A stretch of 64,000 nucleotides of DNA from Vicugna vicugna (taxonomy: Eukaryota): NCBI GenBank assembly GCA_013265495.1, contig MU057796.1:496001-560000 (forward strand). The letters run 5' to 3'. The notes under the pieces are model-generated. The model did not search any database and was not told the DNA's origin. It saw only the letters and a program-made list of their open reading frames with translations. A program made the position numbers and the translations under genes. Shown here in pieces: positions 39,936 through 44,099 of the stretch (its first letter is position 1; each line of letters starts with the position of its first letter).

Positions 39936-41699
39936 ATAACTAAAGTGATTGTCCCATCCATGCAATTAAATTTTCCTTGGGACAAAAAAAGTTTTAAACG
40001 AACTGCCTGTCTTCAGCTATTTTTGATCAAAAGTCATTCTAAAATTCACACCACCCCAAGGTTCACAGTATTCTTTATCAAGATCAACAAAACAATGTGA
40101 ATTCAGAATTCAGCTGTTCAAAGAACCCTTGTCACATTAATTAGGCAAAATATTCTCTAGAAAATTAAAAATTAAAACGACCATTATTGGTACAAACAAG
40201 TGTGAAAAATATACAAGAAGACAATAAGACCTTTAAAATGACATGTAATAATGTGACAGTTATGTATCATAAAAGGAAATATATTAGGGGGAAGGAAGAA
40301 AAAATATTTAATTGGGTGGGAAAGGGAAATCATTATCTGATTTCAAAGATCAGAGCTGTGAGTACACTAGGGACTGGAAGAAAAAAATGTAAGAAATTTG
40401 GAAGATAGAAGTGAGAATACAGAGGCGATAGACTAACCAAAGCGTCCTTGATATCCAGCAGGGTGGCACTGTAATACCCTGCCAGGCTGGAAACTAAGAA
40501 TCAGTTTACAAACAAACAGCCAAAAGATTATGCACCTTAACGGCTGTCTTCACCTCAAGAACAAATGCCCAATAAGACAGACAACTGAGCATCACTTTCA
40601 GGAATTTTTAAAAAATTGATTTGAATGTGACAGGTATATTTCCAGAAAACACTCAATTTGTCAATCTAGTGCTTCTGCAGAATTTTACTATTGTTACTGA
40701 GGAAGAGATTGTTCCCCACTCTCACTTCATTTCTTATGATGCTCATTCATTGGCTTTATTTGGGGGTCTCATAATCTAGAGACTGAAATTGTGTACAAAA
40801 AAAATTCATCCCTTTCTGATTTCCACTGCCTCTCTGAGCTTTATGCAATATTGTATAAATAAGGCGTTTATTGCATACATATTTTTAAAAAATCTATACC
40901 GTTCTTCCTAACAGCTCCTCATTAGTGAAGACAGGCCCATAGTTTGGATATTAATTTCCCTCTGTCTCAGAGTGAATCGATGCTGCTTCACTTCTTGTTA
41001 CTGCTATTTGTGACCTTCCAAAGTGTAGACCCTTGGAAATAAAAACCATAGAAACATGATTTGCTGGAAAGCAAGGATTCCCATAAAAATTTTTAAAGTT
41101 CCCTGACTCACAAAGTAATTGCACATTTTGATTTTGTTACTGTTGTCATGTGAGTAGCTGTTTCTGTAGCCAATTTGGTTATAAAATGTGGCTACTTACA
41201 GCACAGAACTGTTTGTTGAACCATATGAATAGATGTTATCTCATAATTGGTATTAATACATAGAAATAGCTTTGGCATGTGGAAATTGGAAGGTACTTGG
41301 AGAAACAAACCCTAAATGTCACTTGGCAACAGTTGACGGGTGTTAAATTCATGCGTTTTGCTAAGATTCATTTGGGAAAGAGAATTATGCGTGAAAAATC
41401 TCATAATCTTTCACAAATTCATTAATATCTTTTACATTATGTGATGAATTTTTTAAACTCAAGTTTGCAAAACAATTTAGGCTTCCCAGTAAACTCTTTT
41501 TAAAATAAGGTTGAAGTTGAACAGAAATCAGGATCTAATGGGTCTGGTGGGCATGGCTAAATTAAACAACTTACTGTGCATATTTTGCATGGTACTTTTC
41601 ACAATTAAACCTAGGAATTATATTAAGTTAAGAAAAAAACCTTTAAAGCCAGCATTAGATTTTTTTTTTTCTTCCTTACTGGGACTTTATTTCCCGGTC

Positions 41700-43535
41700 A
41701 GAAAAGGAGAAGCAGGGACAGGCTCCTGTGTGTTCCAGGCCCAGGCCTGACCGGGGAAGGGACAGGAGGGGAGGGGCAGGGCACGGCTCCAGCTGTGCAA
41801 GCTTGGTCCCACAGTTGTCCTGTCTGGGTCCGAGGAGGGCCTGCTGGGGACGGTGGCACCGAGCCTGGGGCAGAGGCGGCAGGCCGGTGGGCCCAGAGGA
41901 CGGCACATACGGAGGCAATAAATACTGACAGGCCAGGCACACGACTCCAGGCCGGGAGGCCCAGGAGGGACGAGTAAGGCTCGGCCGCTGGCTGTATCCG
42001 CCGAGAGCTCTCTGGTGGGTCTGGGGGCTCTAGGCACTGCCCCCTGGGACAGAGAAGGCAGAGGCGTGAGGTCACCCAGCCTCCCAGGTGGGACTGGAGG
42101 CCACTGGAGTTTTGGCAGTTTGGCTTTCCCAAGCCCCTGGAGCCGTCCCCGAAGCCCTGGCCGAGGAAAGGGGGTTGGCCAGGCCCTGGCAGGTGGGGAG
42201 CAGCAGGGGCACATCCCACACCTTCCTGGGCCTCAGGGCCTGCAGACGGGGTGGGGATTGGGGGAGACCACATGCTCATGCATCACAGGGTTAGAGGTTA
42301 GTGACGCCCCCACGGCATACGTTCCACATGTTAAGGCATCATGGTTAGACGGTTACTGACAGCGATGGGAGGGCTGACCGGGAAAAGTGAAAGCTGAGGA
42401 CGACCCTTGCACAAGGCCCTCCGTGGTACACCCCACCCCGAAGGTGGGGAGACAGATCGGGAGTCGGGGCAACCACAAAGGCCCAAGGGACCTGAACACC
42501 CTGAGACCTCGAAAAAGCCAGGGCCTCAGGGCAGGTCAGGACAGTGGGGGAACCTTAAGGAACACAGAAGGGGAGGTGGAGGCCTGGGTTGGAGCCCCCT
42601 CCCCACCCCAGCACAGGCGGAAGCAGCAACGACACGAGACCACCGAGGAGGCTGGGGCCTGCGGGCTGGGAGGAAGGAGGAGGGACGGGCCAGCAGGAGG
42701 CTGCCCCGGGGAATGGTGGCGGTGGGGGCCGGGCCCTGTCAGCACTTTGGTCTGGGGTGGGGGAGGGGTGGGGTGGGACACGTCCGTCTGTCCGTCTGTC
42801 CGTCCGTCCGCCCGCCCGCCTCCTGGCAGGGGGTCAGTCCTTCCACTCCTTCTTGATGGTGAGGTTCCACTCCCAGGGCAGGTGGTCTGTCCTGTCGCCG
42901 TCTGTGAAGCGGGACTTGATGCTGTAGGGGCCGCGAGCCAGCGTGCCTTTGGGCGCCTCCTCCGGCGGAGTCAGGAACTCGTACCCCTCGCCCGGGGCCG
43001 TAGCGCCCCACCACGTGGTCGGTCTCGTCAGTTCTGCCGCCTTTCCCGTACGTGCGCTGGATGTACTTCACGCCGGACATGACCTCCCGGTTCACCCGGA
43101 AAGCAGTTTTTATCCCGTACTCCACACCCTCCTTCAGCACAAAGGATCGCTTCCTGGAGCTCTCCAGATCACCTGCCAGGTCCAGCTCCAGGGGGCCCGG
43201 GGCGGTGCTACACACCAGGGTCCGGCGGGTCACCACGACGTCGGGGACGCTGCGGTCTGCGGGCACAGCCACGCGGCCCAGCAGGGCCTCCCTGTACTTG
43301 CGCAGACCCTCGTCGTCCTGGTCCAGCTCCTGGACCTCCTGGATGCTCTTCTGGGCCGGGGGCTTGTGGTTGACCGAATGCTCATCCTCCTCGGTCTCGG
43401 CCGCAGTCTGGGCCAGCTGCTCGGCCGTGGGCTCCCGTTCGGCCCTGCTCACCTCTAGCTGCGTCCGGGACGCTGGAGTCTCGACCGCGCCGCCCTCGTG
43501 CTCCCTCCCGCACGGAATGACGAACGTAGCTGCCC
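41700..43535. promoter_or_regulatory. GC-/CpG-rich island coincident with the ARHGDIA retrocopy (densest at ~42780-43535)
   Basis: Abrupt switch to high GC with many CpGs in otherwise CpG-depleted AT-rich DNA; regulatory activity not shown. Confidence 0.6.
42781..42820. repeat. (GTCC/GCCC)n short tandem repeat at the start of the retrocopy 3'UTR
   Basis: cgtccgtctgtccgtctgtccgtccgtccgcccgcccgcc. Confidence 0.8.
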
Positions 43536-44099
43536 CCAGCATTTTAAATCTCCATTTAAAAAAAATAGAATAAATAAAAGAAAAATTTAGGTATTAAATA
43601 TATATACTATGCATGTATATTTTCAAACAAGAACTTCAGCAAAACTACAATTATCTCCAAAGGAGATAGTGAAAATTCCCCAAATACATTTAATAGAAAA
43701 TCTTAAATACAATTAAACCTATCAATCTATCGTGTTAGGAAAGATAGTATTGTGAAAACCAATCTGTATTTCTACTACTGTTTGCCATGATATTTTGCTA
43801 CTCCCCTGATCATGGTTTTTTTTTTTTAATATAATTTACTATGTAGCACTAGAAAGAAATATAAGCCATGATCAACACCCCAAAATAAACAAAAATAAGT
43901 ATTTAAAGAACCCTGAGACTAGTAGACCTGAAAGTGAATTAAGTGTCCTTGCTCTATAATTTAGCATCCAGGTCATCCTTCTATCTCTCCAGCTTTGAAT
44001 CATATCCCACATTTTAAGATTTTATCACCTACTACTTTTCAGTGTGGATGTTATCTGTGAACTTACTTATTTCTCTACAGTTTTAGGTCCTTTATCATG

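What the first reader, a model, noticed from the sequence alone, without database searches (positions are those of the whole stretch)
42834..43446. ARHGDIA retrocopy has evolved almost exclusively by AT->GC substitutions (candidate GC-biased gene conversion hotspot)
Seen: compared with the conserved mammalian RhoGDI-alpha protein (recalled human/bovine sequence), the copy has nearly 40 replacements, and almost all require A/T->G/C. Examples: M1R (now AGG), Q4R, I14T, N18T, Y27H, I38V, K43Q, S47G, K52R, S62P, N66S, N69D, L75R, T91A, F97S, K98R, Q100R, I114T, S115A, I122V, M126V, H131R, V137G, K138R, I139T, K141E, Y144H, M145V, S148R, M169T, D184G, S191P. I found only one clear G/C->A/T change (V123M, in a CpG context), and CpGs are abundant. 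Established: GC-rich retrocopies in AT-rich DNA normally lose CpG and drift toward AT, whereas clustered weak->strong change is the hallmark of gBGC. A->G, T->C, A->C and T->G all occur on the same strand, which argues against ADAR editing of the template RNA. Inference: the inserted CpG island itself may have seeded a long-lived, possibly unmethylated germline recombination hotspot.
Basis: partly seen in the sequence, partly recalled or inferred. Interest (0 to 1): 0.8.

Follow-up and report, generated by a model that had tools for sequence, protein, structure and literature searches.

The report
Dead ARHGDIA retrocopy driven GC-rich
A broken, intron-less copy of the RhoGDI-alpha gene sitting in AT-rich DNA of a camelid genome has changed almost only from A/T to G/C for tens of millions of years, the signature expected where meiotic recombination repeatedly favours G/C alleles, which makes it a clean natural example of that known process.

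Summary
Window 41672-43535 (minus strand) is a full-length processed ARHGDIA pseudogene with a poly(A) tail, an AATAAA signal and 8-bp target-site duplications.

Against the same genome's intron-bearing parent, its 5'UTR+CDS part shows 59 weak-to-strong (W->S) differences and 7 strong-to-weak (S->W). The 3'UTR shows 27 versus 16.

Of 45 amino-acid-changing differences, which are polarised by a conserved parent protein, 38 are W->S and 1 is S->W.

- The bias is strand-symmetric (A>G 25, T>C 21).
- It includes transversions (13 W->S versus 0 W<->W).
- S<->S and W<->W rates are unchanged.
- 72 of 88 parental CpGs survive.

All 19 GAPDH and actin retrocopies in this genome go the opposite way (518 W->S, 1261 S->W).

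A Camelus dromedarius gene model built on the orthologous copy shares 19 replacements. Another 17 are specific to the window's lineage. The drive therefore continued long after insertion, which excludes RNA editing and reverse-transcription error.

Best reading: a localised, long-lived GC-biased fixation drive (gBGC) on a CpG-island-like insert. Recombination and methylation were not measured. Other CpG-rich retrocopies decayed normally, so the idea that the CpG island seeded the hotspot is unproven. This is a striking new case of a known process.

The parts
41672..43535 (-). Processed ARHGDIA pseudogene (retrocopy). Exons 1-6 of the parent are joined without introns.
   Evidence: blastn and MAFFT against the parent locus L008: six exon blocks are colinear and contiguous in the copy, 88-95% identical. 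Pfam Rho_GDI matches in two frames.
43447..43535 (-). 5'UTR-derived part (parent exon 1 plus the start of exon 2)
   Evidence: Alignment. 5 W->S and 1 S->W differences over 81 aligned sites.
42834..43446 (-). The start codon is now AGG. Single-base deletions lie at 42997/42998 (codon 150) and 42988/42989 (codon 154).
   Evidence: 54 W->S and 6 S->W. Amino-acid-changing differences: 38 W->S, 6 S<->S, 1 S->W. Synonymous: 16 W->S, 5 S->W, 1 S<->S.
41672..42833 (-). 3'UTR-derived part, with a weaker W->S excess
   Evidence: 27 W->S, 16 S->W, 3 S<->S, 3 W<->W over 1084 sites after excluding the repeat at parent mRNA 796-862. 39 of 47 parental CpGs are kept.
42780..42832 (-). GGAC/GGGC-type short repeat at the start of the 3'UTR. 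It is longer in the copy than in the parent, aligns poorly, and was excluded from the counts.
41686..41691 (-). AATAAA polyadenylation signal
41660..41670 (-). Remnant poly(A) tail (11 T on the + strand)
41649..41656 (.). Target-site duplication, 3' copy (CCAGCATT on the + strand)
   Evidence: identical 8-mers at both ends.
43536..43543 (.). Target-site duplication, 5' copy (CCAGCATT on the + strand)
42751..43600 (.). The main CpG-island-like segment of the 64-kb window (GC >= 0.5 and CpG o/e >= 0.6 in 200-bp windows). It coincides with the strongly driven 5' part. A second short segment lies at 42301-42500, also inside the copy.
   Evidence: The rest of the window is 31-42% GC. Flank CpG o/e is 0.16-0.18.

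Best explanation
An L1-type retroposition placed a full-length, GC- and CpG-rich ARHGDIA mRNA copy into AT-rich, gene-poor DNA in an ancestor of living camelids. The copy lost its reading frame early, and one 1-bp deletion is shared with the Camelus copy. Since then it has been subject to a local, class-specific fixation bias favouring G/C over A/T alleles. That is GC-biased gene conversion, driven by recurrent meiotic recombination initiation in or next to the copy.

The bias is strongest over the 5' ~700 bp and weaker over the 3'UTR. It raised GC from 59% to 67% and CpG from 41 to 63 in the 5' part, and it shielded the whole copy from the usual CpG decay.

Shown here:
- the retrocopy anatomy;
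- the polarised W->S excess;
- its class specificity;
- its persistence over two evolutionary periods;
- its absence from 19 other retrocopies.

Inferred:
- that the cause is recombination-associated gBGC;
- that the copy behaves as an unmethylated CpG-island-type (PRDM9-independent, 'default') hotspot;
- that the drive lapsed in the Camelus lineage.
For: 1. Direction. 59 W->S versus 7 S->W in the 5'UTR+CDS, giving GC* of about 0.92. 27 versus 16 in the 3'UTR, giving GC* of about 0.75. Of 45 amino-acid-changing differences at residues where the parent keeps the state conserved in 34 full-length orthologues, 38 are W->S, 6 are S<->S and 1 is S->W.

2. Behaviour by weak/strong class, not by mutation type.
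- W->S transversions 13 versus W<->W 0. Controls give 95 versus 148 (Fisher p = 8.6e-6).
- S<->S plus W<->W per site is the same in the 5' part (4 of 694) and the 3'UTR (6 of 1084), odds ratio 1.04. The general mutation rate is therefore not raised.

3. Strand symmetry: A>G 25, T>C 21. There is no neighbour-base preference and no preference for CpG-creating sites. All three codon positions gained GC.

4. Size of the effect. Four controls of similar age were chosen by the S<->S plus W<->W clock. Against them:
- W->S per W site is about 6.5-fold higher in the 5' part and about 2.2-fold higher in the 3'UTR.
- S->W per S site is about 0.28-fold and 0.38-fold.
- These values fit the standard gBGC fixation formula with a population-scaled B of roughly 4-6 in the 5' part and about 2 in the 3'UTR.

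5. Controls. In 19 of 19 GAPDH and actin retrocopies of this genome, S->W outnumbers W->S (pooled 518 versus 1261). They kept 311 of 855 parental CpGs. The ARHGDIA copy kept 72 of 88.

6. Timing. Over 180 comparable codons, 19 replacements are shared with the Camelus dromedarius model P0001 (nucleotide changes: 16 W->S, 3 S<->S, 1 S->W). Another 17 are window-only (16 W->S, 1 S<->S). The two sets are interleaved along the sequence. The process therefore ran over a long period after insertion.

7. Known framework.
- Unmethylated CpG islands attract recombination and undergo gBGC in dogs (PMC4350167, abstract read).
- PRDM9-independent hotspots at hypomethylated loci give GC* peaks in most placental mammals that still have PRDM9, and they are comparatively stable (PMC11161765, abstract and section 8 read).
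- Strong gBGC acts in hotspots (PMC4510005, abstract read).
- This genome has a PRDM9-like locus with open SSXRD, PR/SET and zinc-finger exons.
Against: - No recombination, methylation or polymorphism data were available. The link to meiotic recombination is inferred from substitution pattern alone.
- The drive runs at full strength up to the copy's 5' end, yet the first 100 bp of flank are only 20% GC, and GC does not fall with distance from the copy. A symmetric hotspot should spill over. The flank could not be polarised. It is not a young repeat, and no orthologous empty site was available.
- A PRDM9-bearing lineage is expected to have short-lived hotspots, so long persistence needs the PRDM9-independent route.
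- CpG-rich actin retrocopies did not acquire the state.
- Synonymous and UTR differences are unpolarised. Some of the 'W->S' differences there could be S->W changes in the parent.
- The post-split timing rests on one gene-model protein from another assembly and on amino-acid-changing sites only.
Confidence: 0.65

Rival explanations
1. A local mutational bias, not a fixation bias. The CpG-island-like copy, for example through an unmethylated or open chromatin state or a repair pathway acting there, suffers A:T to G:C mutations several-fold more often than normal and few C:G to T:A mutations.
For: - The pattern follows the copy's borders rather than spreading into the flank.
- CpG retention across the whole copy fits hypomethylation.
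- Substitution data alone cannot separate mutation from fixation.
Against: - It would need a process that raises both A>G and A>C about 6-fold on both strands but leaves A>T at zero (13 versus 0, against 95 versus 148 in controls).
- The same process would have to leave S<->S unchanged.
- I know of no germline process with that spectrum (my knowledge, not a search).
- The weak/strong class behaviour is what gBGC predicts.
Confidence: 0.15
2. Selection for higher GC or CpG content. The copy would be a functional intron-less transcript, promoter or CpG-island regulatory element. Functional retrogenes are GC-richer than their parents.
For: - Functional retrogenes show GC4 about 11.5 points above their parents, while retro-pseudogenes are 2.9 points below (PMC7181179, passages read).
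- The copy is the only CpG-island-like sequence in 64 kb.
- A Camelus annotation calls a gene on it.
Against: - The frame is broken: AGG at the start and two 1-bp deletions, one of them apparently shared with Camelus.
- Replacements hit residues invariant in 34 orthologues.
- GC rose at all codon positions and in the UTRs, spread evenly at 8-13 changes per 100 bp.
- W->S changes do not prefer CpG-creating sites (p = 0.23).
- Some 60 evenly spread selected changes are implausible.
- No expression evidence was obtained.
Confidence: 0.08
3. GC-biased ectopic (interlocus) gene conversion between the copy and its parent. Heteroduplexes restricted to the homologous region are repaired towards G/C. 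This erases S->W changes in the copy and leaves only differences where the copy has the strong base.
For: - It would explain the sharp limits at the copy's ends, the retained CpGs and the low S->W count along the whole copy.
- The 3'UTR has identical runs of up to 63 bp.
Against: - Conversion can only remove differences. It cannot create the about 6.5-fold excess of new W->S states that neither the parent nor its orthologues carry.
- The S<->S plus W<->W clock is equal in both parts and similar to controls at 4.6-6.8% divergence. There is therefore no sign of homogenisation.
- The 5' part has no identical run longer than 44 bp.
Confidence: 0.05
4. A one-off event at insertion, either ADAR editing of the template mRNA or error-prone reverse transcription. 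Alternatively, an assembly or sequencing artefact.
For: Clustered A>G changes are the ADAR signature.
Against: - T>C (21) is as frequent as A>G (25) on the mRNA-sense strand, and 13 changes are transversions.
- 17 replacements arose after the split from the Camelus copy.
- 14 DNA runs labelled with five organism codes hold 71-82% of the stretch's 31-mers. That is more than the 66% that would remain if the 5' third were wrong (the 66% figure is my arithmetic).
- An independent assembly shares 19 derived residues.
Confidence: 0.03

Closest known systems
CpG-island ('default', PRDM9-independent) recombination hotspots with gBGC: dog CGIs (Berglund et al. 2015, PMC4350167) and most placental mammals (Joseph et al. 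2024, PMC11161765)
   Same: - A narrow GC* peak on a CpG-rich segment.
- Low CpG loss, suggesting a hypomethylated state.
- A W->S-biased acceleration.
- Persistence over long times.
- Slow lineage-specific change, as the Camelus contrast suggests.
   Different: - Here the CpG-rich segment is not an ancestral promoter but a dead retrocopy dropped into an AT-rich desert.
- Hotspot activity and methylation are unmeasured.
- No camelid is in the 52-species study: main text and 4 supplementary files were searched with no hit.
- The genome keeps a PRDM9-like gene.
Fxy/Mid1 in Mus musculus, whose 3' part moved into the pseudoautosomal region (recalled from the literature, not read here)
   Same: A sharp, local, rapid rise in GC, with many W->S amino-acid replacements in one part of a gene after a change of genomic position.
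   Different: - Fxy lies in a region of known extreme recombination, and its neighbourhood is affected too.
- Here the surroundings stay at 31-42% GC.
- Here the sequence is a pseudogene.
Biased clustered substitutions, human accelerated regions and gBGC-accelerated ultraconserved elements (PMC3278478, PMC3157837, PMC10691551; search listing and abstract starts only)
   Same: Clusters of W->S substitutions that mimic acceleration. They are explained by biased fixation near recombination hotspots.
   Different: - Those are mostly short episodes in conserved functional elements.
- This is a roughly 0.7-1.9 kb neutral sequence with an internal ancestral reference (the parent gene).
- The drive here spans two successive evolutionary periods.
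GC increase in functional retrogenes (Mordstein et al. 2020, PMC7181179)
   Same: A retrocopy that is GC-richer than its parent (+7.4 points over the 5'UTR+CDS).
   Different: In that study pseudogenised retrocopies lose GC. This one is pseudogenised yet gains GC, at amino-acid-changing sites as well.
'Biased gene conversion islands' of Cohen, Kenigsberg & Tanay 2011 (known here only through the review PMC8286816, passage read)
   Same: CpG-island-like sequence maintained by W->S gain rather than by selection.
   Different: That class is described as highly methylated with rapid deamination. Here only 9 of 88 parental CpGs were lost by transition.

Membership tests
Processed pseudogene (L1-mediated retrocopy) | Colinear with the spliced mRNA of an intron-bearing parent elsewhere in the genome | tested here: met
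   Six exon blocks of C2570 are contiguous in the copy.
Processed pseudogene (L1-mediated retrocopy) | Poly(A) tail after a polyadenylation signal, with flanking target-site duplications | tested here: met
   AATAAA at 41686-41691, an A11 tail, and 8-bp CCAGCATT repeats at both ends.
Processed pseudogene (L1-mediated retrocopy) | Disabled reading frame | tested here: met
   ATG is now AGG. There are two 1-bp deletions (codons 150 and 154), and Rho_GDI matches in two frames.
gBGC tract / biased clustered substitutions | Polarised excess of W->S over S->W substitutions | tested here: met
   Amino-acid-changing differences: 38 W->S versus 1 S->W. All differences in the 5' part: 59 versus 7. Synonymous and UTR sites are unpolarised.
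gBGC tract / biased clustered substitutions | The bias follows the weak/strong class: transitions and transversions on both strands, with S<->S and W<->W unaffected | tested here: met
   W->S transversions 13 versus W<->W 0. A>G 25 versus T>C 21. S<->S plus W<->W per site is equal in the 5' part and the 3'UTR.
gBGC tract / biased clustered substitutions | Local clustering relative to the genomic background | tested here: met
   W->S per W site is 20.8% in the 5' part and 7.0% in the 3'UTR (p = 1.8e-7). The pooled value in four age-matched control retrocopies is 3.2%. All 19 controls go the other way.
gBGC tract / biased clustered substitutions | W->S derived alleles segregate at higher frequency than S->W alleles, and the region coincides with elevated recombination | not testable with these tools
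PRDM9-independent CpG-island hotspot | Meets CpG-island sequence criteria | tested here: met
   42751-43600 has GC >= 0.5 and o/e >= 0.6. The 5' part has GC 0.67 and o/e 0.83.
PRDM9-independent CpG-island hotspot | Germline hypomethylation | not testable with these tools
   Indirect evidence only. 72 of 88 parental CpGs are kept, against 115 of 227 in age-matched controls. gBGC alone could give the same result.
PRDM9-independent CpG-island hotspot | DSB, DMC1 or H3K4me3 signal, or a crossover or non-crossover peak | not testable with these tools
   No such data.
PRDM9-independent CpG-island hotspot | Activity conserved between related lineages | tested here: inconclusive
   The drive acted before the split and in the window's lineage. 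The Camelus copy has only 4 (+2) changed codons after the split, in mixed directions.
ADAR-hyperedited retrocopy | A>G changes on the mRNA-sense strand only, all dating from insertion | tested here: not met
   T>C 21, transversions 13, and 17 post-split replacements.
Functional retrogene under selection for GC | Intact, conserved open reading frame | tested here: not met
   Start codon lost and frameshifts present. 38 W->S replacements at conserved residues.

The most novel reading that the evidence does not exclude
A dead retrocopy created a new CpG-island-type, PRDM9-independent recombination hotspot in an AT-rich gene desert of a PRDM9-bearing mammal. The hotspot stayed active for tens of millions of years, with sharp limits at the insert's borders. 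It was then lost in one daughter lineage (Camelus) but not in the other. This would be a natural insertion experiment showing that sequence context can found, and epigenetic drift can extinguish, a 'default' hotspot.
Probability: 0.4. Interest if true: 0.7.

Novelty: new member of a known kind. Interest (0 to 1): 0.55.

Why it matters
gBGC and CpG-island hotspots are established. Clean single-locus demonstrations are rare, because the ancestral state is usually uncertain and selection confounds the signal.

Here the parent gene supplies the ancestral sequence, the copy is demonstrably dead, and the surroundings are AT-rich. The drive can therefore be read almost free of confounders:
- about 6.5-fold more W->S changes;
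- about 3.6-fold fewer S->W changes (0.28-fold);
- an unchanged S<->S and W<->W clock.

The contrast between the two camelid lineages offers a test of how default hotspots are born and die, using sperm methylation, DMC1 and population data. The contrast with CpG-rich retrocopies that decayed normally bears on the same question.

It is also a caution for annotation. A Camelus gene model calls this pseudogene 'Rho GDP-dissociation inhibitor 1'.

Tried and rejected
- **Read-level check.** There is therefore no read-level check, no look at the closely related organisms' variants, and no expression evidence. They are what the parent's roughly 93%-identical 3'UTR alone could give, so I draw nothing from them.
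- **PDB search.** A search with a parent stretch failed because my coordinates included an intron. I did not repeat it and used the protein database search instead.
- **Flank polarisation through repeat copies.** The 1.2-kb 5' flank has only 3 weak short matches elsewhere in the genome, so no polarisation was possible.
- **Earlier findings of this scan.** Nothing was found. One search was a word-format error.
- **Camelids in Joseph et al. 2024.** No mention in the main text or in the 4 held supplementary files.
- **PRDM9 in camelids.** The paper search gave nothing usable. KRAB was not confirmed by Pfam for the PRDM9-like locus: the one upstream ORF tested had 0 families.
- **Actin control.** A smaller request of 12 regions was served. 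Of its 10 candidate copies:
  - L049 gave no alignment.
  - L051 and L052 were 28-29% divergent, with only 155-584 bp aligned. They are paralogues, not retrocopies, and were dropped before pooling.
  - L050 (17.5% divergent, possibly a paralogue) was kept.
- **Considered and rejected.** The parent carrying the derived residues, ADAR or reverse-transcriptase error, assembly artefact, and selection on the protein.
Full report
**What is there**

Window 41672-43535, minus strand, is a full-length processed copy of ARHGDIA (RhoGDI-alpha).
- A search of the window's own assembly found the intron-bearing parent on contig C2570 and a more distant paralogue on C12395.
- blastn and a MAFFT alignment show that the parent's six exons lie contiguous in the copy, from the 5'UTR exon to the polyadenylation site.
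- The copy ends in AATAAA (41686-41691) and an 11-base A tail. It is bracketed by identical 8-bp repeats, CCAGCATT, at 41649-41656 and 43536-43543.
- The parent encodes a normal 204-residue RhoGDI-alpha.
- In the copy the start codon reads AGG, and two single-base deletions (codons 150 and 154) break the frame. Pfam's Rho_GDI model accordingly matches in two frames.
- The surrounding 64 kb is 31-42% GC. None of its 38 other long ORFs matches a Pfam domain, and the only CpG-island-like segments lie inside the copy. Flank CpG o/e is 0.16-0.18.

| Region | W sites | S sites | W->S | S->W | S<->S | W<->W | Source |
|---|---|---|---|---|---|---|---|
| CDS, MAFFT alignment | 255 | 358 | 54 | 6 | 7 | 0 | |
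| 5'UTR, MAFFT alignment | 29 | 52 | 5 | 1 | 0 | 0 | |
| 5'UTR+CDS, gap re-placed | 284 | 410 | 59 | 7 | 4 | 0 | |
| 3'UTR, excluding mRNA 796-862 | 386 | 698 | 27 | 16 | 3 | 3 | |

- Three of the S<->S differences in the MAFFT alignment came from placing one 2-bp gap where two 1-bp gaps fit better. The third row uses the corrected placement.
- The 3'UTR count leaves out a poorly alignable GGAC-type repeat at parent mRNA 796-862.
- W->S differences run at 8-13 per 100 bp from the copy's 5' end to about the stop codon, then fall to 0-6 per 100 bp.
- GC rose from 59.2% to 66.6% and CpGs from 41 to 63 in the 5' part. The 3'UTR stayed at about 65-66% GC.

**Polarisation**
- The parent protein keeps the residue found in 34 full-length orthologues at the replaced positions.
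- Synonymous differences are 16 W->S, 5 S->W and 1 S<->S, but these cannot be polarised here.
- No nucleotide outgroup was available to me.

**Is it unusual for this genome?**

I compared 12 GAPDH and 7 actin retrocopies with their intron-bearing parents in the same way.

| Measure | ARHGDIA copy, 5' part | ARHGDIA copy, 3'UTR | Controls |
|---|---|---|---|
| W->S : S->W | 59 : 7 | 27 : 16 | 518 : 1261 (19 pooled) |
| W->S per W site | 20.8% | 7.0% | 3.2% (4 age-matched, pooled) |
| S->W per S site | 1.7% | 2.3% | 6.1% (4 age-matched, pooled) |
| Parental CpGs kept | 72 of 88 (whole copy) | | 311 of 855 (19 pooled); 115 of 227 (4 age-matched) |

- In all 19 controls S->W outnumbers W->S.
- The ARHGDIA 5' part differs from the pooled controls with odds ratio 20.5 (p = 1.4e-23). 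The 3'UTR differs with odds ratio 4.1 (p = 1e-5).
- The four age-matched controls were chosen by the S<->S plus W<->W rate, 0.47-0.73% per site, against 0.56% for the ARHGDIA copy.
- Only 9 of the copy's 88 parental CpGs were lost by transition.

**What kind of process?**
- The bias is strand-symmetric: A>G 25 and T>C 21 on the mRNA-sense strand.
- It includes transversions: 13 W->S versus 0 W<->W, where controls give 95 versus 148 (p = 8.6e-6).
- It has no neighbour-base preference and no preference for CpG-creating sites (p = 0.23). All three codon positions gained GC.
- The classes that GC-biased gene conversion should not touch, S<->S and W<->W, occur at the same rate in the strongly and weakly driven parts (4 of 694 versus 6 of 1084). 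General mutation rate is therefore not raised.
- W->S is about 6.5-fold up and S->W about 0.28-fold in the 5' part. The corresponding figures are 2.2-fold and 0.38-fold in the 3'UTR. These values are what the standard fixation formula gives for a population-scaled coefficient of roughly 4-6 and about 2 (rough, time-averaged, and partly unpolarised).

**Timing**
- The best database match to the copy's translation is a Camelus dromedarius protein model, P0001, at 90% identity. Genuine orthologues reach about 81%.
- P0001 begins in the translated 5'UTR and carries the copy's derived motifs. None of the other 119 retrieved proteins shares more than one of those motifs, each a variant also seen in true orthologues or paralogues. 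P0001 is therefore a model built on the orthologous copy, and the window's genome belongs to a camelid that is not close to C. dromedarius.
- Over 180 comparable codons:
  - 19 replacements are shared (nucleotide changes: 16 W->S, 3 S<->S, 1 S->W).
  - 17 are window-only (16 W->S, 1 S<->S).
  - 4 are Camelus-only.
  - 2 differ in both, with mixed directions.
- Shared and window-only sites are interleaved, so conversion tracts cannot explain them.
- The first frameshift seems to be shared, judging from how the model reads through it (my reading).
- The drive therefore acted on an already dead gene, both before and after a deep split. It was stronger in the window's lineage than in Camelus (19 versus 6 changed codons, binomial p = 0.015).
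- This rules out RNA editing or reverse-transcription error as the main cause.

**Mechanism**

The best-supported reading is GC-biased gene conversion from recurrent meiotic recombination initiation in the copy.
- The nearest known systems are CpG-island hotspots. In dogs, non-methylated CpG islands attract recombination and have undergone gBGC-driven acceleration (PMC4350167, abstract).
- Joseph et al. 2024 infer from GC* peaks that PRDM9-independent hotspots at hypomethylated loci are active in about 75% of 52 placental mammals, including species with intact PRDM9. They find these hotspots more stable than PRDM9-directed ones and report that they evolve slowly with hypomethylation (PMC11161765, abstract and section 8). 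No camelid appears in that paper's text or held supplements.
- This genome has a PRDM9-like locus with open SSXRD, PR/SET and zinc-finger exons. An assembly gap lies in the zinc-finger array, and KRAB was not confirmed. It is therefore not a canid-like PRDM9 loss.

**What does not fit, or is not shown**
- The drive runs at full strength to the copy's 5' edge. Yet the next 100 bp are 20% GC, and GC does not decline with distance. A weaker spill-over at the 3'UTR's level would be invisible in composition alone, and the flank could not be polarised.
- Seven actin retrocopies that began with 65-101 CpGs decayed normally.

**Rivals**
- A W->S-specific mutational process would have to spare A>T and S<->S.
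- Selection for GC in an intron-less transcript has a precedent in functional retrogenes (PMC7181179), but that study found pseudogenised copies lose GC.
- GC-biased ectopic conversion with the parent would explain the borders and the CpG retention, but not the excess of new strong bases.

**Verdict**

This is a vivid, well-controlled instance of a known process, not a new kind of system.

Noticed in passing
G000:C4951:30780-36386 (L036-L038): A PRDM9-like locus. The SSXRD, PR/SET and C2H2 zinc-finger-array exons are open, with a 207-N assembly gap inside the array. KRAB was not confirmed by Pfam. A second SSXRD hit at C9436:1645027 has no zinc-finger array within 20 kb downstream.
   Followed up: partly
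P0001 (database protein, Camelus dromedarius): A public annotation names the orthologous pseudogene 'Rho GDP-dissociation inhibitor 1'. The model starts in the former 5'UTR and skips the frameshifted stretch, so it is most likely a mis-annotated pseudogene.
   Followed up: partly
G000:C2570:1497911-1499481 (L042) versus C2570:1699249-1700407: An ACTG1-like multi-exon actin gene lies about 200 kb from the parent ARHGDIA on the same contig. This matches the neighbourhood I recall for human 17q25.3 (recalled, not checked).
   Followed up: no
G000:C149:2016-3131, C3083:7998-9116, C3551:1837-2946, C9929:493-1612: Several full-length, stop-free, intron-less actin matches lie at low coordinates (under 10 kb) on their contigs, whose lengths were not returned. 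They could be recent retrocopies, intron-less actin genes or cDNA-like assembly fragments.
   Followed up: no
L053 (G000:C9881:11867244-11868680) and L023 (G000:C2689:6836138-6839380): Two control retrocopies have per-site W->S about equal to S->W (0.069 versus 0.069, and 0.150 versus 0.142), unlike the other 17. L053 sits at the end of its contig. These are possibly milder cases of the same drive.
   Followed up: no
window 42780-42832: The GGAC/GGGC short repeat at the start of the 3'UTR is longer in the copy than in the parent, which indicates microsatellite-type expansion after insertion.
   Followed up: no
window 42742-43593 (-), 42378-43079 (+), 43004-43570 (+): Long stop-free frames of 189-284 codons run on both strands across the copy. 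These are expected by chance at 67% GC, and there is no evidence of coding.
   Followed up: no
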